DNA of 64,000 nt from Picochlorum sp. SENEW3. Taxonomy: Eukaryota. Location of the stretch: contig CP120461.1 in NCBI GenBank assembly GCA_034226945.1, forward strand, positions 1 to 64,000. The letters are read 5' to 3'. The notes below the pieces were generated by a model. The model was given only the letters and a program-made list of their open reading frames with translations, was not told where the DNA came from and searched no databases. Below are positions 1 through 64,000 of the stretch, one piece after another (position 1 is the stretch's first letter; every line of letters starts with the position of its first letter). The translations under genes and the position numbers were made by a program.

Positions 1-279
1 CTTCGTTCAGTTACGTATTGCTGCTTACGGTTCACTACTCACGACGATGTTTTTTGGTACCTTTTTTAAAAAAAATTCCAAAAAAATTCCAAAAAAAGCG
101 ACTACAAACTTCGTTCAGTTACGTATTGCTCCCTATACCCTATACCCTGTGCATACCGTCGTTCTTGGCAGGAGGGTAATGAGGGTAAATAAGCCAATAT
201 CAGCACCACTTCCCACCACACAAACGAAAAATAAACACAATTTCCTAATAATACAAAAATAAACCATCATAAAAACAAA

Positions 280-3217: not shown

Positions 3218-4036
3218 GCCCACAATCGTGTACCAAGCGTTGGAAAAGTGGCCCCCAGGCACACCCCTCCCTAGACGGCCGGTCACGAGGAATCTGGGAA
3301 ATCCGAGAAATCTCTTTTTGAATTACATCCATATGAGGTGCCCCAAAGCGAGAAACCAAGGAGCACAGCTCTCACGTGCCCACAATCGTGTACCAAGCGT
3401 TGGAAAAGTGGCCTCCAGGCACACCCCTCCCTAACCGGCCGGTCACGAGGAATCTGGGAAATCCGAGAAATCTCTTTTTGAATTACATCCATATGAGGTG
3501 CCTCAAAGCGAGAAACCAAGGAGCACAGCTCTCACGTGCCCACAATCGTGTACCAAGCGTTGGAAAAGTGGCCTCCAGGAACACCCCTCCCTAGACGGCC
3601 GGTCACGAGGAATCTGGGAAATCCGAGAAATCTCTTTTTGAATTACATCCATATGAGGTGCCTCAAAGCGAGAAACCAAGGAGCACAGCTCTCACGTGCC
3701 CACAATCGTGTACCAAGCGTTGGAAAAGTGGCCTCCAGGCACACCCCTCCCTAACCGGCCGGTCACGAGGAATCTGGGAAATCCGAGAAATCTCTTTTTG
3801 AATTACATCCATATGAGGTGCCTCAAAGCGAGAAACCAAGGAGCACAGCTCTCACGTGCCCACAATCGTGTACCAAGCGTTGGAAAAGTGGCCTCCAGGA
3901 ACACCCCTCCCTAGACGGCCGGTCACGAGGAATCTGGGAAATCCGAGAAATCTCTTTTTGAATTACATCTATATGAGGTGCCTCAAAGCGAGAAACCAAG
4001 GAGCACAGCTCTCACGTGCCCACAATCGTGTACCAA
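3218..4036. repeat. 160-bp tandem repeat, ~5.1 near-identical copies
   Basis: Unit starting GCCCACAATCGTGTACCAAG recurs at 3218, 3378, 3538, 3698, 3858 and 4018 (partial). Confidence 0.97.
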
Positions 4037-6170: not shown

Positions 6171-6730
6171 ACAACAATGACAGTCACAACCATTCCGGAG
6201 CCGCGACGTTGAGGCCTCTTTCTTCTGATGACTGTGTTCTATCACAGTGTTGAAGACAAGTCACGAAAACAGACAAACCCAAAGTCGACGTGACTGTATG
6301 TTTGAGGGAGATTCGCGTCGTTGTCTCGAATGCGTGAGCACACTCCTCGCGTGGGTTGGTCTTCCTGAATCTGTGACAAATGATCTTACTGGCTTCTTGG
6401 ATGAATTTTGACTACTATATAGTATAGTAGCCCCGCAAATCCCACGTAGGTGGGGCAAGGCTCTCCGGGAGCCGCTCTCGTCTTGATGGCTGCTATCTGT
6501 TGTTGAGGCGGTTTTTATGTGGTCCTGTCCTGTCCTGTGGGCGACCGGAGAGGAGTCGTCCTGTCGCCAGATTACCTTCCGGAATAGAATACGATAAAAA
6601 AACCCCGACCAAAAGGTTATTTGCTGGTTACTTGCTGGATACTTGCCGGTTACTTTGTCGTGGTCATACATTTTTATTATCCTCATTTAAAGACGTCCAA
6701 GGTGCACATCACCTTCACCCCTCTGAAAAC

Positions 6731-7160
6731 CCATGCCAGAGACAATGTCCACTCTTCTAGCTTTGCACATATATTTGTATACTATAATTACGTCTATACA
6801 AAAGAGCGCAGGACTGGACATTGTCTTGGACACCACCAAACACGCCTCACAAGCTCCTTGATAGTGACCACCAGGGTGACCACTTCACCCCGCCGAATGA
6901 CCATGCCAGAGACAATGTCCACTCTTCTCGCTTTGCACATATATTACTATACTATAAATACATCTACACAAAAACGCGCAGGACTGGACATTGTCTTTGA
7001 CTCCCCCAAACACGCCCCACAAGCTTGCTGATAGTGACCACCATTGTGACACACTTCAGCTCCCTGAAAACCAACCTCAGAGACATTTGTTTTTTTCTCT
7101 AACTTCTCTCAGATACTATTTATACATATTTATATATCTGGGCAAACGAGCGGGACTGGA
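6731..7160. repeat. Diverged ~170-bp tandem repeat (2 clear copies plus 1 degenerate)
   Basis: CCATGCCAGAGACAATGTCCACTCTTCT at 6731 and 6901; GCAGGACTGGACA recurs with the same spacing. Confidence 0.85.
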
Positions 7161-28243: not shown

Positions 28244-28661
28244 TCTTCTGGAGCCTGCACACCGAAATGCACCCTGCTGTGTAGTTGCACGCAGCCAAAC
28301 GCACGAACAAAGTAGACAACGTACCCAGCAGTGCTCGACCGGTCTGGAGAGATGAGCGAATCGTGTACGTAGTTTTACAAACTGCAGATCATACGAGATA
28401 CTACCGTGATGCCATCTCTGTGGCGGTGCATTGCCTTGACATGTCAGGTGTAAACGTACATGCAATTCTCTGAGGTGTTCTACCACAGAGCATTTCAATG
28501 ACTACAAAACCAGCGCAAATTTTCAAATTATTGTACCAGAAAGGCGATCGCCTGGGACTTGTAGCGTCTCGAGATGATTGTCTCATGTCCCACCTCTACT
28601 TGAGCAAATTGAATGCCTCGTCCTACCGAGCGTGCATTTGCAATGCTGCAAACAAAATAGC

Positions 28662-30798
28662 ATGGATTTGGAGGAGCAGTTGCTGCAGTCCTTGGAGAAG
28701 AGCGACGACGAGGGATTTGACAGCGAGAGGAGTCAAAGTGGCGAGTTTTCAACGACACCACTTGGAGGAGGGTCACTCGACAACCTTCCGGGGGCCTTGT
28801 TGGAAGGGGATGCTCCCGTTTCATGGGTTTCAGAGGCAAATTTAGATGTATTTTTTGGCAGGCTGTACCTGTACTGGGAGTCAAAAGGCTTTAGGCAGTT
28901 CCTGGTCGGACGAGTCCTGAACGCACTTGCGCTGGCGTTTACTGGAGTGTTGTCGGGGTTTCTTCTTCTGGGCGTGAACTACTCTGGTTTGAGCAATCCA
29001 TGTTTGAAAGAGGGATCCTGCAGTATTCTCGAAGCATGCCTGAGGGAGTTATCTCGGGTTTTGTTTCCGATAACCTTGTGGAAGGTGGTCTCGACCTTGT
29101 ACCTGGGAGCTTTTGTCGCATATGTTGCGCTCGCCGTGGTGCATCTCGTCTCAGAATACAAAGGAATGTCTCATGTTTACGAGTTTGTGAGAAACGACCT
29201 GGGATATAGCGAACGCGGCATCCGTGCGGCGACGTGGCAGGAGGTGTTGGCAAGGGTAGTCGAGTCTCAAAAGCGGGTCAGGATATGCTTGTCTCGCGAC
29301 CTGACTGAGCAGGATATTGTCATGTGCATCATGCGGAAGGATAATTATTTGATTGGCATGCTCAACAAGGGTGTTCTGGCGTTGACTTTCTCGGGGTTGC
29401 CCGGCCTGTCAAAAGCCCCTCTCCTGACCAAAACAGGTTGAATGGAACCTGAGATGGTGCATCTTGAACGCCATGTTTGACGATTCTCTCCGGGTGAAAG
29501 AGTCGTTTCTCTCCTCTCCTGAGACAATAAAGAAGAGATTTAGAGCTGCAGCTTTGGTAAATATCGCTCTGTCGCCATTTTTGCTCGTGGTGTTGATCCT
29601 GCAGAGTGTGCTAAAAAACGCTGAGAGCGTGTACCGACAGCCAGGGTCCATAGGAGCCAGGCAATGGTCTCCCCTGGCCCTTTGGTATCTCCGCGAATTT
29701 AATGAAGTTCCCTTTTTCTTGTATAATAGACTGAATTCAGGTCACGAATCTGCAATGAGGTATATCAAACAGTTTCCAAATTTGTTAGTCAGCGACATCT
29801 CTCGTTTCCTGTGTTATATTGCTGGATCATTTGCTGCCCTTCTCATGGCGCTCACATTGTTTGAAGACGATTTGCTAGAAGTAGATTTTATGAGTGGAAA
29901 GCAGACAGTTTGGTGGCTGGCTGTCTTGGGTGTGGTGCTTGCTGTGTTCAGGCCCATGGTTGTTGACAAATCCACCACATCATTTGACCCAGAGTTGGCC
30001 CTCCTGGAACTCGCCGCCCATACGCACCATTATCCTCGTCATTGGAGTGGAAAGGCTCACACATTAGACGTACAGGAGGAAGTTGAAGCCATGTTTCGCT
30101 ACAGGGCTGCCATCTTTCTTGAAGAGCTTGCAAGTGTGATTTTGACACCAATCTTGCTTTGGCGAGTTTTGCCTACATCAGCAAGCGAGATAGTCGCATT
30201 TCTCCAAAGTAATACGACATATGTGCCCGGATTGGGAGATGTTTGCTCATTCTCTGCATTCGACGTGTCAAAGCACGGAAATAAAAAGTATGGGAGCTCC
30301 CGGAACGGACCAAAACGCCTGAGATCGAAGCAAGGCAAAATGGAAAAGAGCATCATGAGTTTTGCAGCAATTTACCCGACATGGAACCCCCCGGAGCAGA
30401 GTAAAGTGCTCCTGAGTAACGTTGACAGCGTGTTCCAGGATGAAAATGAAACATTGCCAGAATTGGTGGAGCAGCAAGCTCAAGGGTATGACATGCATGG
30501 ACATGTCAATTTCGACATACGGAAGTTTTTGATTACATACTATCCACACGTGGCTAAAATGGTGATGAATTCACAAGACGATCCACTCGCAAGTCTTTGT
30601 GACCTGAGAAAAGACACAGCCAAGGGAGACCCTGGGAAAAAAACAATGATCTCGTACAGTATGCTCCAGTACTTTCATGACCACCAGGAAAAAATGCATG
30701 CAAGCCTACAGAGCCAAGAAGCAACCAATAGCAAGCAAAATGCACCGAGCCATGATCAGGAGCGCAGCAATGAGATGAGTGTGTTGGGTATAGGGTAG
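28662..30798 (+). CDS. ATG9: Autophagy protein ATG9 (1-nt frameshift near 29436)
   Basis: NLDxFF..LY.Y..KG, IMRKDNYLIGMLNKG, EWNLRWC, REFNE, GDVCSFS.FD..KHG, GKMEKS. Confidence 0.92.
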
Positions 30799-31566: not shown

Positions 31567-32685
31567 ATGGAAACCATAAAAAGAAATTTCATTATTGCGA
31601 TTGGTCCTCATACCAGGACCGCTCCTCGACCGGGAATCCGTAGGACAAGGCAGGTGCTGCACGACACTGGTGCGAGACGGGCCCTGTTTGTCTTCCAGAC
31701 GACTCCCCGAGCGTGCAAAGCCCAAGCGAGGTTGCTGATCCAAGCTGCGACTGAGGAAATTGTCGAGGTCAAGAATCTGAAAGGCATACGAATGAAACCG
31801 CGCAGCGCCGAGGACGAGGAGAAAAAGGTTCGTCCAATGGTGGAGTACTTGGTAGCGTGGAAGGATGGGTCGCCAGATACATGGGAGCCCGTCACAAATC
31901 TCGCAGACAATTTGCTGAGAGATTTTGAATCCAAATGGTGGAACGCTGTCAAAAAGGGTGACGAAGCTGTGATGAGCGAGATGCTCGACGGCGGAGGCGC
32001 TGTTTTGTCACGAACCCTGAATGAGGACAGGCGCAGTGCATTGCATTTTGCCGCTGCTCTTGGGAAAGCTGACCTGGTGCGGCGTCTCATCAGAGAGGGG
32101 GCCGAGGTGGACCTGGGAGATAAAGAAGGGTACACTCCTCTGCACATGGCCGCAGGATATCTTCATACATCGACAATATACGCTTTGATAGAAGGGAATG
32201 CAGATCCAGAGCAGCAGGATTTGCAGGGCAGGTCTCCCTTGGAGCTTGTCGAAAGCCTGAGAGCAGCTCTGCCCCCGGATAATCCAGCGACTGCGGCTCG
32301 TAGAATTGCTCTAGAAGAGGTACTGAAAGTATTGGTGGATAATTTGTTCGAAGATGTGCTTCCAGACGCCGTAATGGAGAGTAGAGAGATAGAAAATGGC
32401 GATGGAGCCAAGGAGTACTTGGTGAAATTTCCCGATGAAGATGAACCTGTGTGGGTCCACGAGAAGTACATGTCGGAAGAGGTCGTATCCGATTACCAAG
32501 ATAACCTGGAGTACGCGAAAGCTGAGAAGATTCTCGATGTCCGAAATAAGGGGGACTCTCGTGCGTATTTGGTGAGATGGATGGATGGATCAGAGGACAC
32601 CTGGGAGCCAGAAGAACATGTCTCCCAAGATCTCATCTTCATGTTTGAGAACAACGGTGCTCTGCCTCCAGGTGTCAAAATCTAA
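31567..32685 (+). CDS. cpSRP43: Chloroplast signal recognition particle 43 kDa subunit
   Basis: Chromodomain (EYLVAWKDG), ankyrin repeats (TPLHMAAGY), two further chromodomains and a transit peptide. Confidence 0.95.
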   Translation: METIKRNFIIAIGPHTRTAPRPGIRRTRQVLHDTGARRALFVFQTTPRACKAQARLLIQAATEEIVEVKNLKGIRMKPRSAEDEEKKVRPMVEYLVAWKDGSPDTWEPVTNLADNLLRDFESKWWNAVKKGDEAVMSEMLDGGGAVLSRTLNEDRRSALHFAAALGKADLVRRLIREGAEVDLGDKEGYTPLHMAAGYLHTSTIYALIEGNADPEQQDLQGRSPLELVESLRAALPPDNPATAARRIALEEVLKVLVDNLFEDVLPDAVMESREIENGDGAKEYLVKFPDEDEPVWVHEKYMSEEVVSDYQDNLEYAKAEKILDVRNKGDSRAYLVRWMDGSEDTWEPEEHVSQDLIFMFENNGALPPGVKI

Positions 32686-38565: not shown

Positions 38566-38597
38566 ATAAAAACGATGTAAAGGAGTAGGGTGGTCCA

Positions 38598-39985
38598 ATG
38601 GTCGACATGTTCAACTGTTCAAGCGGAACACCTGGAAGAATAGCACGCACAGGCACAGGGCTCCGAAGAAGGACACGCCTTCAAAAGATAACATCAGAAA
38701 GGATCGTTCATGTATCATCAACCTCTGCAGACCAAATTCAGCTGCAACTGGTCTCGTCCATTTCAGACATTGGACAGGGGTCCTGGAACGCTTGTCTTGA
38801 GCCTGGAGCAAATCCTTTCTTGTCCTATGAGTTTTTGCATGCTTTAGAAGAGAGTAAGAGCGCCTGTGCCCGAACTGGGTGGCTCCCTCAGCATGTGTTG
38901 ATCACAGCTGCACAGGGCGACTCCTCTGAAACCCTTGCTGTATGCCCAATGTACCTCAAGGGGCATTCATACGGCGAGTACGTGTTTGATTCTGGGTGGG
39001 CACAATCATATGACTACAATGTACCGACTGGGCCACGGTACTACCCCAAGCTGCAATGCTGTGTTCCTTTCACGCCAGTCGAGGGGAACAGAATACTGTT
39101 GAACAACAATCATAGCAGGGGCCTCCACCAGGAGGATTTGTTTGTGTCCATTGCTGATACAATGATGACGCTACCTGAAAGAATGGGAGTGAGTAGTGTT
39201 CACGTGACGTTCAATTCAAAGGAAGAAAGTGATACAATGGCCAGAAGAGGTTGGATCCAACGGTGTGTGGGATTGTGTCAATGGATGCGATGATATGTGC
39301 CACTTCATTGATTTTCGGTACATTCGAATGCAGGACAGGAGTTCAATATCATTTTCAAAATCGTGGATACGACAACTTTGACGACTTTCTGATGAATCTG
39401 AAACAGAAGAAGCGAAAATCAATCAGGCAAGAGCGCAAACGAGTCCAGAACAATGTGGTGGTGAAGCAATTGACGGGAGATGACCTGAATGCTCGGGTAT
39501 GGGATAGTTTCTATTCATTTTATCTGTCAACAGTCGATAAGAGGTGGGGGACTGCGTATCTAACGAGGGAGTTTTTTGACATGATTGGGGAGTCGATGAG
39601 GGACCGGATACTTCTGGTGTGCGCCTACGAGAATCAGACAGATGAGACCCCTATTGCTGCTGCACTGAACCTCATTGGGAACGACACACTGTTTGGTAGG
39701 AACTGGGGCTGCCTTCCAGGTCTCCACATTCATGGCTTGCATTTCGAGCTCTGCTATTACCAAGCCATTGACTTTGCCATAAGAAATGGCCTTAAAACTG
39801 TCCAGGCTGGCGCTCAAGGCGAGCACAAGATCCAAAGGGGATACTTGCCATCTACGACGTACAGCAACCACTATGTGGCCAATGCGCAGTTTGCTCATGC
39901 CGTGAAAGACTTTTGCCAGAGGGAATCCAGAGAGTTGGAAGCGTACTCGGAAGCCCTCCAAGTGTACGAGTCTCCCTACAAGTGA
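38598..39985 (+). CDS. DUF482 / FemAB-like GNAT N-acetyltransferase, probably plastid-targeted
   Basis: HSYGEYVFD, YYPKL..VPFTPV, HFELCYYQAI, GAQGEHKIQRGY; one intron. Confidence 0.9.
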
Positions 39986-56679: not shown

Positions 56680-57101
56680 GGTACTTCGAAGTAGAATTCT
56701 ACGTCCGTGCTCGCGCGAATGAAAAACTCTGTGCTGAGTTGAGAAGAAGACAAGCCGACGTTGCCTAGTCTGGCAGGATCACCAGCAATCGCAAATCGAT
56801 GTATTCCACTTACAAGAAGTGTGCCATATAAATAATATTGAATGCACAGCAGATCTATTGACAAGTCGAAAGGCCACTCTTCTTGAATCCCGTTGCTACA
56901 AGTAGATTTGACCGATCGGAGCTGGAGATAGACAATGCTGCGACGATTATGTTACTCACAAGTAAACAAATATTGAAGAATGATCGAGTATCGCCAATGG
57001 TTGCATATTTGTGGACCCACAAGATTGGATATGATCAAAGATCTTCAAAGATCTGTTTGAAGCATCCAAGAAAGAAAGAAAATTGATTCCTAGAAGTCCT
57101 G

Positions 57102-58076
57102 CTATTTCTCAAGGGATGACAATGCGACTGGAACAGAGGGCCCCATGGTCGTGCTTAAAGTCATCTTCAAAATGTAGCCAGGAATGCCTTGTCCCTTGAT
57201 TGCCTTTGGGCGGGCCTCGAGCACCGACCGCACGAATGCCTCAATATTCTCCTGCAATGCTTCCACCGAAAAACTCTTTTTGCCAACTCCTCCGTGAATA
57301 ATGGCTCCCTTGTCTGCTCTAAATTCTACACGTCCCTGCTTCATGGCAACCACCCCAGCAGCCACATCCTGTGTAACTGTCCCCAGCTTTGGATTGGGCA
57401 TCAAGCCCCTCGGGCCCAGGATTCTTGCAATCTTTCCCAACTTACTCATCATATCGGGTGTGGCCAAACATGCATCAAAGTTGATGGCAGAAGACCCATC
57501 TTGCTGTATTTTGGAGATGAGGGCATCGTCCCCAATGACATCAGCCCCTGCCTCTCGTGCAGCCCCTTGAGCGACGTCTTGCACTGTGAATACACAGACT
57601 CTGACCTTTTTACCAGTTCCATGCGGCAATGATGCCATTCCGCGGACCATTTGATCACCCCTTCTGGGATCAACGCTGGTATTCAGGGCAACTTCAACAG
57701 TCTCATCAAACTTTCTCTGCTTCCTCTGAGAAGTGTCAGTCTCCTTCATCTCCTGAATGGCTTCTAAAAGGGGTAAAGGTTGCCTGTGGCGCTCTGGACG
57801 CACCCTTGGAGGAATGTATCGGGGGAGAGGTAACCCATTCAAAGTCCTAATGCTCTGCTCGACCAGAGGCTGGGCATCGTGACTGCTGTTGCCTCCCGCA
57901 GAACTAAACCACCGCTTCGGACCACCTTGCGCTAAAAGATTCTCTACAATATTATATGTCAAATTATGGCTGATTGAGTCGCCATCAGTGTGGCCTGAGG
58001 CGATTGTCGCGCAGACTCGTGTTTCTAGTTGCAGCAATTGCTGCAGTGAAGGGCGACGCAGTCGCAGGGATGCCAT
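57102..58076 (-). CDS. rplA: Organellar (mitochondrial) ribosomal protein L1
   Basis: KFDETVE, LPHGTGK, LGPRGLMPNPK, STTMGPS; mitochondrial-type presequence. Confidence 0.93.
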   Translation of the reverse strand: MASLRLRRPSLQQLLQLETRVCATIASGHTDGDSISHNLTYNIVENLLAQGGPKRWFSSAGGNSSHDAQPLVEQSIRTLNGLPLPRYIPPRVRPERHRQPLPLLEAIQEMKETDTSQRKQRKFDETVEVALNTSVDPRRGDQMVRGMASLPHGTGKKVRVCVFTVQDVAQGAAREAGADVIGDDALISKIQQDGSSAINFDACLATPDMMSKLGKIARILGPRGLMPNPKLGTVTQDVAAGVVAMKQGRVEFRADKGAIIHGGVGKKSFSVEALQENIEAFVRSVLEARPKAIKGQGIPGYILKMTLSTTMGPSVPVALSSLEK

Positions 58077-58690
58077 ATCTGCAACTTTACAGTATTTTAG
58101 CGATGTATGACGCCATGGAGTGTATCGAGTTCAACATCACCCCGATCAGTGACAACACTGATGTGCGACGTCGCAACTGCCCTATTTAAGGAAAATCGAG
58201 GACGTCCTCGGTCGACCGGGAATTACAAATTGATTGCAATTGCAATTTTTGCAAAAATTGAAGAGGACGCGGGCATCACCCATTTTCGATACGTCAACAT
58301 CTATGCATGTAGATGATTTTCGGTTTACAAGCAAGAAATTAATATTCATGATAGCCATATATTGTGATCGGTAGAGCCGTGTCTGGCGTTTGAAATATGT
58401 CATCTGCGGTTTTGAAAATGGTGTAAATGACGCGTGACCGACGTCGATGTATGTTCTGGGCGTATAAAAATTCTATGTAATACGCCATTGAAAATATACG
58501 TTGTGAAAACGTACTCGTTGCCCACGTGTATCAATACGCCATCGTAGAAATACTCTCTATTACACATCTGTAAAATACGCGTATCATACAAAAGCGTGCT
58601 GCAGGCGTCTTCTGACGCCTTCGAACAGCATCGTTTCAAGACTGTACCCACACATGTGGTGGGCTACATAAAATACTATATAGGAGCACC

Positions 58691-60497
58691 TCATTGCTCC
58701 TCTGAGAATGGCTGCTCCTCTGAAAATCCATGCTGCTCCACTGTTGGAAAGGTGACATGCCTGCTCTCTGAGTTGTACACTTCTTCGAGAATAGTGGTAT
58801 ACTTGAGTACACTCTCCTTCTGATTCAGCAGGATCGTCTCAAACTACATCCACATAATATGGCAGTTACACTTGGTATTATTGCTGAACCACAAATACAC
58901 ATGCATGCATGCAACCAATGGAAGTGGGCCATGTGATGATAGGAGCAATGCCTCCTAGACATACACACCAGAGTTCTTCCTGGCGTATATTTCTTCAGCT
59001 AATAGTCAGGGGCAATTCAGAAAGAAAAGCCATATCATGGTAATACCCACTGACCGTGAAACATACATGGTACCCTACATTGGTTGCCTCTAAAAAGCAA
59101 ATGCATACAATATCACCAAAGGCTTTGCGTACCTTGTAAATATAAAATGCCAGAATAGCCTGTGGAATCGATGAGATGTTGGTTCCATGGGTATCTTGCC
59201 TCACGTTCAGTCTTGGAAACTCTTTTGGTGACATTCCAATGGACAGAATGTGAGCATCTTGCAAACTTGCCAAAAACATGCGAAACTTTGCATTGCCGAA
59301 CGGATCAAACCAACCACTATACCTGTCTCTAGTACATCTATACGCAGGTCCCTTCTTAGAACCATCACCTGCATGCAAAAGGATCAACATCACACATTTC
59401 ATACACATGCATGGTGTGTGTGCACTAGTACCTGATGAGATCTGAAGCATGAACTGCCTTTGGGTCTGCTCCGAAAAACGCATCTTTCTTGTCTGAGTTG
59501 TACTCATGCTCGCTTCCCCGTAACCCTCCATATCGCTCTCATAGACAGCCTTGAATGCTGTGATGGCCCTCTTGGTCAGATCTGCGCGGATGGTAGTTCG
59601 AACCAGCGTTTTGACCTGCATGCAATAACATGGAAAGAAAATTGAGATATTGTGGATCAATTCATCATCCCTTGTGCAGTAGACATACCTTGGTTGATTC
59701 TTTCTGCAGGTCTGTTGCTGAGATTTTTGGATAAAACTCCCGCACAACAGATATGATGGTTTGTTCTGTTGGATACATGCCGCTTGTTACATCACGCATT
59801 ATGTGCTGAAGTATGACAAGCTTGATTGTTTTCATCTGCAAATATACAGTGCAAATTAGCATCAAACAACCACCCGGCGCTCGGCACAGATGATCCATAC
59901 CCTGCCAATATCTATTTCATCGGACTGGCCTTGGCCTTCACGAACCAGCCTTTTCATCTCTTCAAAGCCTTGAATATTGCTTTCAATCAGGCTTTCAAGC
60001 AGTTGTTTGATCTGATCTGTGTTCGTCGCCAATATTTCTAGCCAATTGGCAATCTTTCTCTGTTGTTCGCCACTATCCAAGGGAGGCTCCTTGTCCTGCT
60101 CTTCATCCATAGAGTCCTGGACACATTCATAGCCAGAACCATCATCTCTTATTTCATCGAAAGGCATTTCTGACGAAATATCATATCTAGCATTGTGTTG
60201 CATGGGCGTATGATATGGGGTTGGAGCTGGATTTGAATTCAAATTTGGATTCAAACGAGATCCAACCGTTCGGTTCAGTTGGTTGCCAGGCTCATGGACG
60301 AGACTCGAATCAGAGCCAAAAGGCACACTGCCGACCTGTACATTATTCGTATTCGTATTATTTACAGTCGTATTTGCGACTGGATTCTTCCTAGGTCGCC
60401 CTCTACCGCGCTTTTGCGGAACCGTGTTATTCGGTGTGATCATCTGTACATCTCCCGAAACACAGGCACCGTTGGATATTTGCTGTCTGTTTTCCAT
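58691..60497 (-). CDS. Multi-exon AT-hook protein, probable transposon accessory ORF
   Basis: KRGRGRPRK AT-hook, acidic stretch and coiled coil. Consecutive ORFs are linked by short GT-AG introns; the 3' end is inferred. Confidence 0.55.
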
Positions 60498-60754
60498 TTT
60501 GCTACATAACTTTGATATAAATATCACGCTTTTATTATGTGGGCGAGAGAATGCATAGAATTTGGTATGTGACTTGTCTCAACTGCCACGGGCTCTTTGG
60601 AGAGTGTCCGGTTTGGGCATCGAGTCAGTCTGACCCGTGCCTCGAGATGATCAGCGGCTTCCTGATCATGAGGTAGCGCGCGTCCGATACCACTCGCTGA
60701 AAGTAGACAGAGTTGATGTATAGCGAATAGTCTTTACACGGTTGTAGAATAATA

Positions 60755-63700
60755 ATGAGACGCGCAGTGCAAACATTTGGGGTCTGGGAGAAGACGGAGA
60801 GAGCTACCCAACAGTGTGAGTATTGCAAACTCTGGTTTGCCAAAGTGGACGCTCGACACTATCGAACATGTATATTCATTCCTGGCGAGGAGAGACGCCA
60901 AAAGTTAGCATGGCTTGAAGAATTGAAAAAGGATAGGAAGAGAGTCGCCGAGAGGGAGAGATATGCTCGCAAGAGAAAGTTGGCTGCCCAGGTTCCAGGT
61001 CAACCTCAGAGCCAAGATAATGTGCAATTCTTGCCACAGGGCCCAATCTTGAACAACGAAGAGAATTTAATGGATGGAGGATTGGACGATATGTGCATGT
61101 CTTATGGCGGAGAGGCGTCGGCTGACGCTCAGATGGGAATGGATGGCATTACTCAGGAGGAGGTGCAACAAGATGAAGAATTTGTGGACTCCCATCTCAC
61201 ACGAGCTCTATGCGACGTGATACAAGACGTTAATCAGAAAAAGGCAGATAATTTACTGAAAAGCATCCACAGGATATTACGAGAATCTGGGCGAACCAAA
61301 TTCGCCCAGGCTTTTAAGGATTTGAAAACCTTCCAGGACTGTGTGGCATCTGCATCCCAGAGGACCCAGTTGAAAGCAACAAAAGTTCTCACATCTGCGG
61401 GTATACAATGCTACGTGTATCATGTATCAGATGCAAAGCAATTGCTACATGAAATGCTCCTTAAAGTGGGCCAAGTGAGCACCAGACCTGAGACATGCAC
61501 AACAGAAGATGGAGCATCCCAAGCCTATGGCCAGGTTGTATATGGTAGCTGGATGAGGGAAACATACGTACGCCATCTAATTGAGTGTATAATTTATCTG
61601 CGAGACGCATGTGTAATTGTAATATGTACGTGCAGCACAAAATTCAGGAACTATCTCCAGGAGCAGAACTGCTTCCCATTGCATTTTACAGTGACAAAAC
61701 GCTGACAAGCAGCAGTAGATCCTTGTATCCTGTGAATTTGTTTCTTCCTTCGGCCAATAAACATTCCGTGCACAAGGGAAATTCGTATAGATGCATTGGT
61801 CTCGTGCCGGAGCCTCCCATTGTCACTGGTGTGCTGACCACAAAGAAGAAGTTCTTCAAATCCCTGAGAAAATGGCTAACCTACACAGCCATGCAGATCA
61901 TCCTAGAGCCTTTCAAAGAAATCAGCAAGACTGGAATAGTATTAAACATAGATGGGATAGAGAAAAAGTACTATCCAATACCGGTTTTTTATGTGGCCGA
62001 TTTGCTAGAATACCAGACTATTTTTGGCATCAGTGCTTCGGTGAGCGTCCCAGACTCCTTTCCTGATCCAAGCTATCTTGTGCGCACAAAGGATCTGGAT
62101 CTGAACCAAGAGTTCATGTCGATACCGAAGCGAAGAAGTGAAGAAAACACCCTGAAACGAATAGAGATAGCTCAGCGGATGAATAGATCTGGGGCAAGCG
62201 AAGAAGCAGTACATAAACTGAAAAAGTTTTCCCTGGATCCATTGCTGTTATATTCTCCCAAGGATGACTGCGAACGGATTTTCAAAGGGAAAAAAATCAT
62301 AGAGTTTTATTGGGTGCGTGACTGGTGTGCGCTTTTTCGTGCGTATCCTAACGTGAGCATAAAGGCCAAGATGTTGTATATTCGCAGGGAGAGGGGATGA
62401 ATACTGATGTGACACTTCCAGTGTCTGGATTCCATCTGACCAACTGCTTCGATTTGGTTGTCCCTGATAAACTCCATACATTAGACTCAGGTATTGGGTC
62501 GATGCTATACTGCACAAATCCTGAGCAAAAGAACTCTCTGTTCAATATCTGCATGAATATGTCAGGAAGAAATCGGAGCACCATTACCGAAATCATGAAT
62601 CAAACTGTGGAGGATTCCTCCCCATGGCCGAATTATAGCCTACCAACATCCAAATTCAGAGATCCAGAGAATAGAAAGATAAAAATATCGAGTGAACAAT
62701 CTGCAAATCTGCGTCGATTGGCATTGATTGCCTGTCTTGCTGATGAGGCTCTTTATCCAATAATCCCTCCTTTGAAAGGTGAGTGCCGCATGGGAATGCA
62801 ATTCATTTTTTTGTTTATTATTGTGGCTTCATCACAACAATACATGAACTTCATTGCAGCCTATCTCGATGTAGAAGAGTGTATCAATAGAAAGATACAC
62901 ACGGATGAGTCGATATCCACAATGCATGAGTTGATCAAGAAACTGCGTCAGGAGATGCTGAAAGCCTGGTCAGCAGTGTCACAGGATCTTAATCTTAAAA
63001 TCCTGAAATGGTTTTCACTCTATAAATTTGTGTACGAAGTGAAACGATCTGGTTGTGCCAGTGTCACAGATACGCATCATCACGAGAGGACCCACAAGGA
63101 CATCAAAAAGGCCAGTGGATTTACCAACAACCATCTTGATACATTGATGGGGCAAACCATTGCAAAATCTATTAGAATAGCTCAAACGAAAGATTTGATT
63201 AGCAGTTCTGGGGCCGCTCGAAAGTATAACACCATTGTACGCTCTCTCATTCCAAATGCAGATGAGACATCTCTAACAGCAATCCTATTGTGCAGAGACA
63301 AAGATGCATTGCCAACAAGGCGCTCACCATAGTGAAGAGTCCAATGCTCGTGAGCAATATGATGGATTTGAATGAGAGTATCAAGCCTTTTCAGGCGTAT
63401 TGTCCAGAGATGGCCCGCCTGAAATACTGTGTGGAGATTCTGTACAGGGTGAATCTCAGACAGACATCCAAGCATGTGTCACTGCCACTTGATACCAAGG
63501 TAAATTGCATGCTGTGAAACGGTTACTAATATGATCATTTATTGCTTAAAATATTATGCAGATTGAGATTTATTCTGGAGCATATATTCCATACCATCAG
63601 ACTCCAGGCTCTGAGATGGATGCCAAAAAGATTCTTGGAAGGGTGGCCATAATTGATCAAGTAAACAAGGTTCGAAATCGATTCAAGCAAGGAGAATGCC

Positions 63701-64000
63701 AAGAATCAGAGGAGAGACAAGAAATAGATAGATTGGTTCAGCGACTGGGTTCGTTCGTCACAGCAAAAGGCAATACACTGTCTGAAGAATGGTATGCTGA
63801 GGTGATTTGTTTTGTCCGAGTCACCCCACCGCCCACCGCACGTATGGAGACTCATGAGACCGCATTCGTAAGATGGTATAAGGAAGTGAAGGCTACAGAG
63901 ATTCATGATCGCATTGGGTTGCCTGTGCTCCAACTGGAGAAGACAACGAGGCCATCTGTCGCAGACAGCCAAATCCAGACTGAGCCATTCACAGACTTGA
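60755..64000 (+). mobile_element. Plavaka-type (CACTA/EnSpm-related) DNA transposase, truncated by window end
   Basis: Introns 61568-61635, 62314-62387, 62779-62859, 63237-63295 and 63500-63561 give one open frame with YSDKT..YPV, IGLVP, ILEPF..G..DG..YVADLLE, PDKLH, HHERTH and AFVRWY. Confidence 0.8.

What the first reader, a model, noticed from the sequence alone, without database searches (positions are those of the whole stretch)
58150..64000. Apparently intact Plavaka-type transposon with a divergent two-gene layout in a green alga
Seen: six exons joined by canonical GT-AG introns give an uninterrupted frame of over 900 aa, with an N-terminal CxxC..H..C finger and motifs SDKT, YPV, ADxxE, PDxLH and ERxH. 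Known: these motifs characterise Plavaka transposases, described mainly from fungi and related to CACTA/Mirage. Inference: this is a young, possibly active element carrying a head-to-head partner gene across a 257-bp shared promoter.
Basis: partly seen in the sequence, partly recalled or inferred. Interest (0 to 1): 0.75.

Follow-up and report, generated by a model that had tools for sequence, protein, structure and literature searches.

The report
Plavaka-type transposon in a Picochlorum-like alga
The end of this window holds a real, open-reading Plavaka-family DNA transposase gene and a divergently transcribed companion gene of unknown function in a Picochlorum-like green alga, a layout already recorded in another green alga, so it is a solid but fairly ordinary mobile-element find.

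Summary
Six exons joined by five GT-AG introns (59-81 nt) give a 967-codon frame with no stop. It is still open at base 64000. The exon-2 frame matches Pfam Plavaka (PF18759) above its curated cut-off.

The partner gene is real. Its five exons give 438 aa, of which 431 are identical to an annotated Picochlorum sp. BPE23 protein. The two start codons lie 257 bp apart.

Three claims could not be shown: transposon ends and target-site duplication, copy number, and youth or activity. The right end lies outside the window, and no eukaryotic genome collection was available.

The two-gene layout is not new. [quoted passage not shown] Plavaka in chlorophytes is already published.

The partner belongs to a very small, unnamed family. 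It has an AT-hook. A language-model search points to fungal DUF6532, but Pfam did not confirm this.

Verdict: a new member of a known kind, of modest interest.

The parts
60755..64000 (+). Transposase gene. Exons are 60755-61567, 61636-62313, 62388-62778, 62860-63236, 63296-63499 and 63562-window end. It gives at least 967 aa and its 3' end lies outside the window.
   Evidence: Spliced frame with no stop and five GT-AG introns. Pfam Plavaka PF18759, E 1.9e-12, 47.5 bits against a cut-off of 26.3, on the exon-2 frame. 45-51% identity to five PF18759 proteins.
60815..60871 (+). N-terminal C2HC zinc-finger-like motif (C21, C24, H35, C39).
   Evidence: Sequence. The same spacing occurs in Picochlorum SENEW3 P0001. 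It is the only part of the P0001 model with pLDDT 60-73.
61690..61701 (+). SDKT motif, with the putative first catalytic Asp (D291).
   Evidence: It is conserved in 3 of 3 homologues that cover it.
61996..62010 (+). ADLLE motif, with the putative second catalytic Asp (D393).
   Evidence: A121 and D122 of exon 2 are invariant in 6 of 6 sequences.
62463..62477 (+). PDKLH motif (a D-x2-H block as in CACTA-type transposases; that comparison is recalled, not tested).
   Evidence: P-D-x-L-H is present in 6 of 6 sequences.
63084..63095 (+). ERTH motif. E703 is a candidate third catalytic residue, and H702/H706 form an H-x3-H.
   Evidence: ERTH is kept in P0003, the only homologue that reaches this far. 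The assignment is inferred.
60498..60754 (.). 257-bp spacer between the two divergent start codons, presumed to be a bidirectional promoter.
   Evidence: Coordinates. Promoter function is inferred and was not tested.
58688..60497 (-). Partner (accessory) gene. Exons are 60497-59901, 59835-59689, 59615-59432, 59368-59133 and 58843-58691, with the stop at 58690-58688. It gives 438 aa.
   Evidence: 431 of 438 residues are identical to P0015, 'hypothetical protein M9434_007131 [Picochlorum sp. BPE23]'. The four introns are GT-AG.
60378..60413 (-). AT-hook (partner residues 29-40, with a GRGRPRK core).
   Evidence: Pfam AT_hook at 14.8 bits on the window frame and 13.8 bits on P0015, against a cut-off of 17.4. 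It is below the cut-off, but the motif is visible in the sequence.
59142..59342 (-). Conserved core of the partner family (residues 319-385: Y..DPFG..FR.LL.LQDAHL...IP..ILAFY).
   Evidence: 15 columns are invariant in 9 of 9 sequences.
58077..58687 (.). Region that must contain the left end of the element, if it has one. It lies between the host ribosomal-protein L1 start codon (58076, minus strand) and the partner stop codon. Candidate terminal motifs are CATCA at 58135 and CACTGATG at 58157, and a 7-bp hairpin lies at 58145-58162.
   Evidence: Sequence. The L1 gene was identified by Pfam at 1.1e-59. No terminus is proven: the 29-mer at 58135-58163 has no second copy in the window at up to 3 mismatches.

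Best explanation
Window 58.1-64.0 kb holds the left two thirds or so of a cut-and-paste DNA transposon of the Plavaka lineage (EnSpm/CACTA-Mirage-Chapaev-Transib group). It sits in the nuclear genome of a Picochlorum-like trebouxiophyte green alga, just upstream of a ribosomal-protein L1 gene.

It carries two divergently transcribed genes:
1. A DDE-type transposase of at least 967 aa. It has an N-terminal C2HC finger and a catalytic core with D291, D393 and a third acidic residue near 703-719.
2. A 438-aa accessory protein. It has an AT-hook, a long helical segment and a conserved C-terminal core.

Shown: both gene models, Pfam family membership of the transposase, the existence of relatives of the accessory gene, and a parallel element layout in Auxenochlorella.

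Inferred: the pair moves as one unit bounded by short TIRs with a 2-3 bp TSD. The transposase cuts and rejoins the ends. The accessory protein is a DNA-binding helper or regulator, in the manner of En/Spm TnpA or other transposon accessory genes.
For: - Pfam PF18759 sits above its cut-off on the window's exon-2 frame and on 5 of 5 homologues. In P0002 the match covers profile positions 36-316 of 325, from the end of exon 1 to the PDxLH block.
- The 967-codon frame has no stop, and the intron positions are shared with homologues.
- The accessory gene is real and conserved: 431 of 438 residues are identical to a BPE23 protein. A further 95%-identical fragment, P0004, and 7 more distant relatives were found in 1.84 billion representatives.
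- All 7 differences from P0015 lie in the disordered exon 1 (199 of 438 residues). My own arithmetic gives (199/438)^7, about 0.004, which suggests constraint on the C-terminal part.
- Both genes have lower GC (0.447 and 0.451) than 13 host frames (mean 0.501, sd 0.014). Their GC3 is 0.473 and 0.465 against 0.515, sd 0.023.
- Both genes carry 4-5 short introns, while neighbouring host genes are mostly single frames.
- The Picochlorum SENEW3 relative stands for 18 member sequences. That fits a multi-copy family there.
Against: - No terminal inverted repeat or target-site duplication was seen. The right end is outside the window.
- The window holds only one copy. The best off-locus tblastn hit has E 0.27.
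- No protein near-identical to the transposase turned up in either length band searched, so nothing shows a second transposase copy.
[quoted passage not shown] The only CxxC is at residue 21, and 6 of 6 aligned sequences have D-P-x-Y at the expected place. That placement is my inference.
- The third catalytic residue is not pinned down.
- Both AlphaFold models were poor (pLDDT 44.6 and 36.7), so no fold evidence exists.
- The BPE23 relative of the partner is annotated as an ordinary hypothetical gene.
Confidence: 0.72

Rival explanations
1. A domesticated or immobile gene pair. A former Plavaka transposase and its neighbour are now fixed, single-copy host genes without functional ends.
For: - Only a single copy is seen in 64 kb.
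- No ends were found.
- The open frame and the constraint on the partner's C-terminal part would also fit a host function.
- The CxxC motif is lost.
- The partner is annotated as a normal gene in BPE23.
Against: - The composition differs from that of host genes.
- The same two-gene layout is recorded in an element curated as autonomous, with TIRs, in Auxenochlorella.
- Several divergent lineages of the transposase (45-60% identity) and three variants of the partner (100%, 98.4% and about 95%) exist in public data. Both look like a transposon family.
Confidence: 0.13
2. A real Plavaka insertion that is no longer autonomous. It would be truncated or broken beyond the window, or catalytically dead.
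For: - The 3' end was not seen.
- The CxxC motif is absent, and the H-x3-H is not kept in P0003.
- The third acidic residue is uncertain.
Against: - 967 codons run without a stop across five introns.
- The D291 and D393 blocks are invariant among relatives.
- D-P-x-Y in place of CxxC is shared by all 6 aligned algal sequences. That makes it a lineage trait rather than decay of this copy.
Confidence: 0.25
3. The partner is an unrelated host gene that merely lies next to the transposase.
For: No genomic context could be seen for any partner relative. The family has no Pfam name.
Against: - The low GC and GC3 are shared with the transposase.
- The genes are head to head at 257 bp.
- The same arrangement is recorded in Auxenochlorella Plavaka-1.
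- Feature searches with two family members, which are only 26% identical to each other, both point first to basidiomycete DUF6532 clusters. One paper reports that domain as enriched together with Plavaka and KDZ domains (passage read).
Confidence: 0.1

Closest known systems
Plavaka-1_UTEX250 of Auxenochlorella (EnSpm-Plavaka; Dataset S3 of PMC12633428, row read)
   Same: Both hosts are trebouxiophyte green algae. Both have a Plavaka-type transposase plus a second gene of unknown function in antisense orientation. The recorded length of 8.8 kb fits an element that starts near 58.1-58.6 kb and runs past 64 kb.
   Different: The sequence of that element was not available here. So homology of the two accessory genes, the 15-bp TIRs and the 3-bp TSD could not be compared. 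The host here is Picochlorum-like.
Fungal Plavaka families (Pfam PF18759; PlavakaA and PlavakaB of Kojima 2025, PMC12730594, passages read)
   Same: The transposase domain matches the Pfam model above its cut-off. The D, D and PDxLH blocks are present. A CATCA pentamer (the PlavakaB terminus) lies at 58135 in the region where the left end must be.
   Different: Identity to the Pfam model is modest (47.5 bits). [quoted passage not shown] The accessory gene is not a TET/JBP dioxygenase. The termini are unverified.
Red-algal giant Plavaka elements with PAG1-3 accessory genes (bioRxiv 10.1101/2025.02.11.637652, passages read)
   Same: Both are Plavaka transposases that travel with accessory genes of regulatory or unknown function.
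   Different: Those elements are 17-19 kb with three accessory genes (methylase/SET, ParB-2OG oxygenase, and one unknown). Here there is one accessory gene with none of those domains.
En/Spm (CACTA) with TnpD transposase and TnpA DNA-binding helper (recalled knowledge)
   Same: It works in a similar way: a transposase plus a second element-encoded protein that may bind DNA. The partner here has an AT-hook and a weak HTH_Tnp_Tc3_2 match at E 0.06.
   Different: In En/Spm both proteins come from one transcription unit by alternative splicing. No sequence similarity to TnpA was tested or seen. No Pfam transposase family other than Plavaka matched any of the eight frames scanned at E up to 1.

Membership tests
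Plavaka transposase (Pfam PF18759) | Match to the family HMM above its gathering score | tested here: met
   Exon-2 frame: E 1.9e-12, 47.5 bits against 26.3, profile positions 97-252 of 325. 5 of 5 homologues pass, and P0002 covers positions 36-316. Exons 1 and 3 scanned alone gave no match. The spliced protein could not be submitted whole.
Plavaka / CMCT clade (Kojima 2025) | D, D, E catalytic triad | tested here: inconclusive
   D291 and D393 sit in invariant blocks. The third residue is either E703 (ERTH, kept in P0003) or an acidic residue about 13 positions after H706 (D in the window, E in P0003). No reliable structure model was obtained.
Plavaka / CMCT clade (Kojima 2025) | [quoted passage not shown] | tested here: not met
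   The only CxxC in the 967 aa is at residue 21. 6 of 6 aligned algal sequences have D-P-x-Y about 20 residues after the second D. This is a departure at lineage level and does not overturn the Pfam match.
Plavaka / CMCT clade (Kojima 2025) | H(3-4)H motif before the E | tested here: inconclusive
   H702-x3-H706 is present in the window. In P0003, the one homologue that reaches this region, the first H is L.
Plavaka transposon (element level) | Terminal inverted repeats (TGT..ACA or CATCA..TGATG) with a 2-3 bp TSD | not testable with these tools
   The right end is beyond base 64000. No eukaryotic genome collection was open. The candidate left-end motifs at 58135 and 58157 are unverified.
Plavaka transposon (element level) | More than one copy, or insertion polymorphism | not testable with these tools
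   The window holds one copy.
DUF6532 (Pfam PF20149) for the partner protein | Match to the family HMM | tested here: not met
   0 of 9 family members matched at E up to 10. Only language-model feature searches point there: score 0.92 with 133 shared features for P0015, and 0.96 and 0.95 with 164 and 154 shared for P0008. All are below the 170 shared features typical of true members.
TET/JBP or red-algal PAG accessory genes | 2OG-dioxygenase, methylase/SET or ParB domains in the accessory gene | tested here: not met
   Pfam shows none of these in the partner frames or in P0015. PAG1, which has no known domain, could not be compared.

The most novel reading that the evidence does not exclude
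The 438-aa partner may belong to an old, unnamed accessory-protein family that travels with Plavaka transposases in both green algae and basidiomycete fungi, where it would be known as DUF6532. In that reading it acts as the element's DNA-binding helper or anti-silencing factor. The algal transposases would meanwhile have swapped the zinc-binding CxxC of the clade for D-P-x-Y. If so, Plavaka would be a conserved two-protein system rather than a lone transposase that picks up cargo.
Probability: 0.25. Interest if true: 0.5.

Novelty: new member of a known kind. Interest (0 to 1): 0.3.

Why it matters
Picochlorum genomes are among the most compact in the green lineage and are used for engineering and for adaptive-evolution work. 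A possibly autonomous cut-and-paste element there could be a source of mutations and a candidate tagging tool. The accessory gene gives a concrete handle on what Plavaka elements need besides the transposase.

Plavaka in chlorophytes, and the antisense second gene, are already in print. The gain is therefore incremental.

Tried and rejected
- Second copies or ends in the window: none. tblastn and blastn gave a best off-locus E of 0.27. The repeat searches returned only short matches that I take for chance. The 29-mer search found 1 match, itself.
- Solved-structure sequence search with the transposase profile: only 2 chance-level hits, at E 0.26 and 0.63.
- AlphaFold models:
  - Partner: mean pLDDT 44.6.
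  - Picochlorum SENEW3 transposase relative: mean pLDDT 36.7.
  - Both were too poor to use, so no fold search was run. The strand-helix order around the two Asp blocks looks RNase-H-like, but I give it no weight.
- Bacterial and archaeal genome scan with the transposase alignment: 40 pattern matches, 0 confirmed.
- Host intron survey for comparing splice sites: ambiguous, with too many candidate pairs. I dropped it.
- P0005 (4866 aa, 32 stretches, 25% identity) matches only the low-complexity and intron-derived part of my query. I left it out of alignment A1 as spurious.
- An in-frame short intron that would bring the 'GYYHDMAFL...' stretch into the partner protein: I found no acceptor in the right phase by reading the sequence.
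- The supplementary file media-4.txt of PMC12633428 holds plasmid maps, not transposon sequences.
- The supplement of the Spirogyra paper could not be read. Its Plavaka tree may already include Picochlorum.
Full report
**What is in the sequence.** Reading 57000-64000 and listing stop-to-stop frames shows five successive plus-strand frames from 60731 to the window end. Joining them at GT-AG sites gives six exons: 60755-61567, 61636-62313, 62388-62778, 62860-63236, 63296-63499 and 63562-63999. Together they make 967 codons with no stop, and the frame is still open at base 64000. The five introns are 68, 74, 81, 59 and 62 nt long, and all end in GCAG.

**Family of the transposase.** The exon-2 frame matches Pfam Plavaka (PF18759) at E 1.9e-12 and 47.5 bits, above the curated cut-off of 26.3. 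No other Pfam transposase family appeared at E up to 1 for any of the eight frames scanned in that call. Two word-indexed protein searches gave few hits:
- exon 2, longer proteins: 3 hits among 1627 candidates;
- the exon 3-4 frame, similar lengths: 3 hits among 1966 candidates.

Together these are five distinct proteins, 45-51% identical to exon 2 and up to 60% over exon 3. All five pass the Pfam cut-off. In P0002 the match spans profile positions 36-316 of 325, that is, from the end of exon 1 to the PDxLH block. The only named hit is a hypothetical protein of Picochlorum sp. SENEW3, which stands for 18 member sequences. In a script alignment, the spliced protein is colinear with these relatives across junctions 1-3. 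Three relatives stop or read through exactly at the 'PLKG' donor of intron 3, so that intron position is shared. Junctions 4 and 5 and the last 220 residues or so have no homologue support.

**Catalytic motifs.** D291 and D393 lie in blocks that are invariant among the relatives. [quoted passage not shown] Here the only CxxC is in the N-terminal finger. About 20 residues after D393, all 6 aligned sequences have D-P-x-Y instead. Placing that stretch opposite the CxxC is my inference from the recalled spacing in RAG1 and CACTA. H702-x3-H706 is present, but P0003 does not keep the first H. The third acidic residue is therefore not pinned down. A profile search of PDB sequences found nothing. The AlphaFold model of the SENEW3 relative was poor (pLDDT 36.7), so there is no fold evidence.

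**The partner gene.** On the minus strand an ATG at 60497 opens a gene whose first four exons I derived from frames and GT-AG sites. A protein search with its largest frame found one hit among 98 candidates: P0015, 'hypothetical protein M9434_007131 [Picochlorum sp. BPE23]', 438 aa. That sequence shows a fifth exon (58843-58691) behind a 289-nt intron. With it, the window encodes 438 aa, of which 431 are identical to P0015. All seven differences lie in exon 1, which is 199 of the 438 residues. By my own arithmetic the chance of that is about 0.004, so the C-terminal part looks constrained.

An exhaustive HMMER search of 1.84 billion representatives gave 9 hits:
- a 95%-identical 132-aa fragment (P0004);
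- seven relatives at 40-51% identity;
- one repetitive 4866-aa protein, which I discard as spurious.

The aligned family (9 sequences) shares 15 invariant columns in a core reading Y..DPFG..FR.LL.LQDAHL...IP..ILAFY, which ends at a shared intron position. Pfam gives only an AT-hook below its cut-off and a weak HTH_Tnp_Tc3_2 match at E 0.06. The AlphaFold model is mostly helical but unreliable (pLDDT 44.6), so I ran no fold search.

Language-model feature searches with P0015 and with P0008 both put basidiomycete DUF6532 clusters first. The two queries are only 26% identical to each other. Scores were 0.92 with 133 shared features, then 0.96 and 0.95 with 164 and 154 shared. Pfam does not confirm this: 0 of 9 members match. 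One paper lists DUF6532 among domains enriched together with Plavaka and KDZ in certain Ganoderma genomes (PMC8955403; passage read). This remains a lead and is not a result.

**Host and surroundings.** The rest of the window is a dense run of eukaryotic housekeeping genes, mostly as single long frames. One has chromo plus ankyrin domains, the cpSRP43 architecture of the green lineage (that assignment is from general knowledge). Published Picochlorum figures are 40-49% of genes with introns, mean intron 88-101 bp and mean intergenic distance 220-364 bp (PMC6141220; table passage read). The window fits them. Together with the 98.4% match to a BPE23 protein, this makes a Picochlorum-like trebouxiophyte the likely host. 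An exact look-up of host proteins was not possible.

Directly left of the region lies a ribosomal-protein L1 gene on the minus strand (57105-58076; Pfam 1.1e-59). Any left end of the element must therefore lie in 58077-58687.

**Is it a transposon?** Points in favour:
- Both genes have lower GC (0.447 and 0.451) than 13 host frames (mean 0.501, sd 0.014), and lower GC3.
- Both are intron-rich in an intron-poor neighbourhood.
- The transposase family shows several divergent lineages.
- The partner exists in at least three close variants.

Points against, or simply open:
- The window has one copy.
- No inverted or direct repeat marks an end.
- The right end lies beyond base 64000.
- No eukaryotic genome collection was available.
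- The bacterial and archaeal genome scan found 0 relatives among 40 pattern matches.

In the left-end region I note CATCA at 58135, which is the PlavakaB terminus according to Kojima. I also note CACTGATG at 58157, a 7-bp hairpin at 58145-58162, several palindromes, and two to three ATACGCC-type short repeats at 58475-58555. None of these is proven to be a terminus.

**Comparison with what is known.** Plavaka was first described in fungi. It has since been reported in red algae with three accessory genes (bioRxiv 10.1101/2025.02.11.637652; passages read). It has also been reported in 'red algae, chlorophytes, and streptophytes' (PMC13519894; passages read), and as potentially active EnSpm-Plavaka elements in Auxenochlorella. 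My searches returned 20 papers for 'Plavaka', of which 16 were listed, and 7 papers for 'Picochlorum' plus 'transposase'. None reports Plavaka in Picochlorum. However, the Spirogyra paper's supplementary tree could not be read. The BPE23 genome paper masked repeats before annotation and does not mention transposons: 0 occurrences of 'transpos'.

**Verdict.** This is a genuine Plavaka-family transposase gene with a conserved, divergently transcribed accessory gene in a Picochlorum-like green alga, and most likely a copy of a two-gene Plavaka transposon (confidence 0.72). 'Intact', 'young' and 'active' remain unshown. The layout is not novel for green algae. The open points of some interest are the function of the accessory family, its possible link to fungal DUF6532, and the apparent loss of the CxxC motif in the algal lineage.

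Noticed in passing
window 1-150: The same 22-mer occurs at 1-22 and 109-130. It is followed by short CCCTATA-like repeats and then by about 1.3 kb of A/C-rich low-complexity DNA (GC 0.39, AT skew 0.28). From memory the 22-mer looks like the tail of a long-read sequencing adapter, so this may be an untrimmed read end at a contig or chromosome end. It was not tested.
   Followed up: no
window 3218-4036 and 6713-7058: Two tandem arrays: 160 bp x 5.1 copies at 97% identity, and 170 bp x 2 copies at 86% identity. They lie in a region without Pfam-recognisable genes, and may be subtelomeric repeats.
   Followed up: no
window 28578-30798 and 38589-39985: The ATG9 gene and the FemAB-like gene are each split into two overlapping frames. 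Their Pfam profile positions abut (2-196 with 195-478; 1-164 with 155-368). This looks like single-base frameshifts rather than introns, either assembly indels or real pseudogenes.
   Followed up: partly
window 58998-59132 (minus strand, partner intron 4): Reading through the intron-4 donor gives 45 more residues and a stop. The end of that stretch (GYYHDMAFLSELPLTIS) resembles P0006 (GCHQDLAFLMNCPLIV), a relative only 30% identical to P0015 overall, and it is kept in the 95% fragment P0004. This may be a retained-intron isoform or a conserved DNA element.
   Followed up: partly
window 60648-60668 and 58141-58162: The spacer between the two genes contains a 7-bp-arm inverted repeat built on GATCAG. 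The same hexamer sits in the hairpin of the left-end region. This may be chance.
   Followed up: no
window 31567-32682: A chromo plus ankyrin protein of 372 aa has the cpSRP43-type architecture, which serves as a marker of the green lineage.
   Followed up: no
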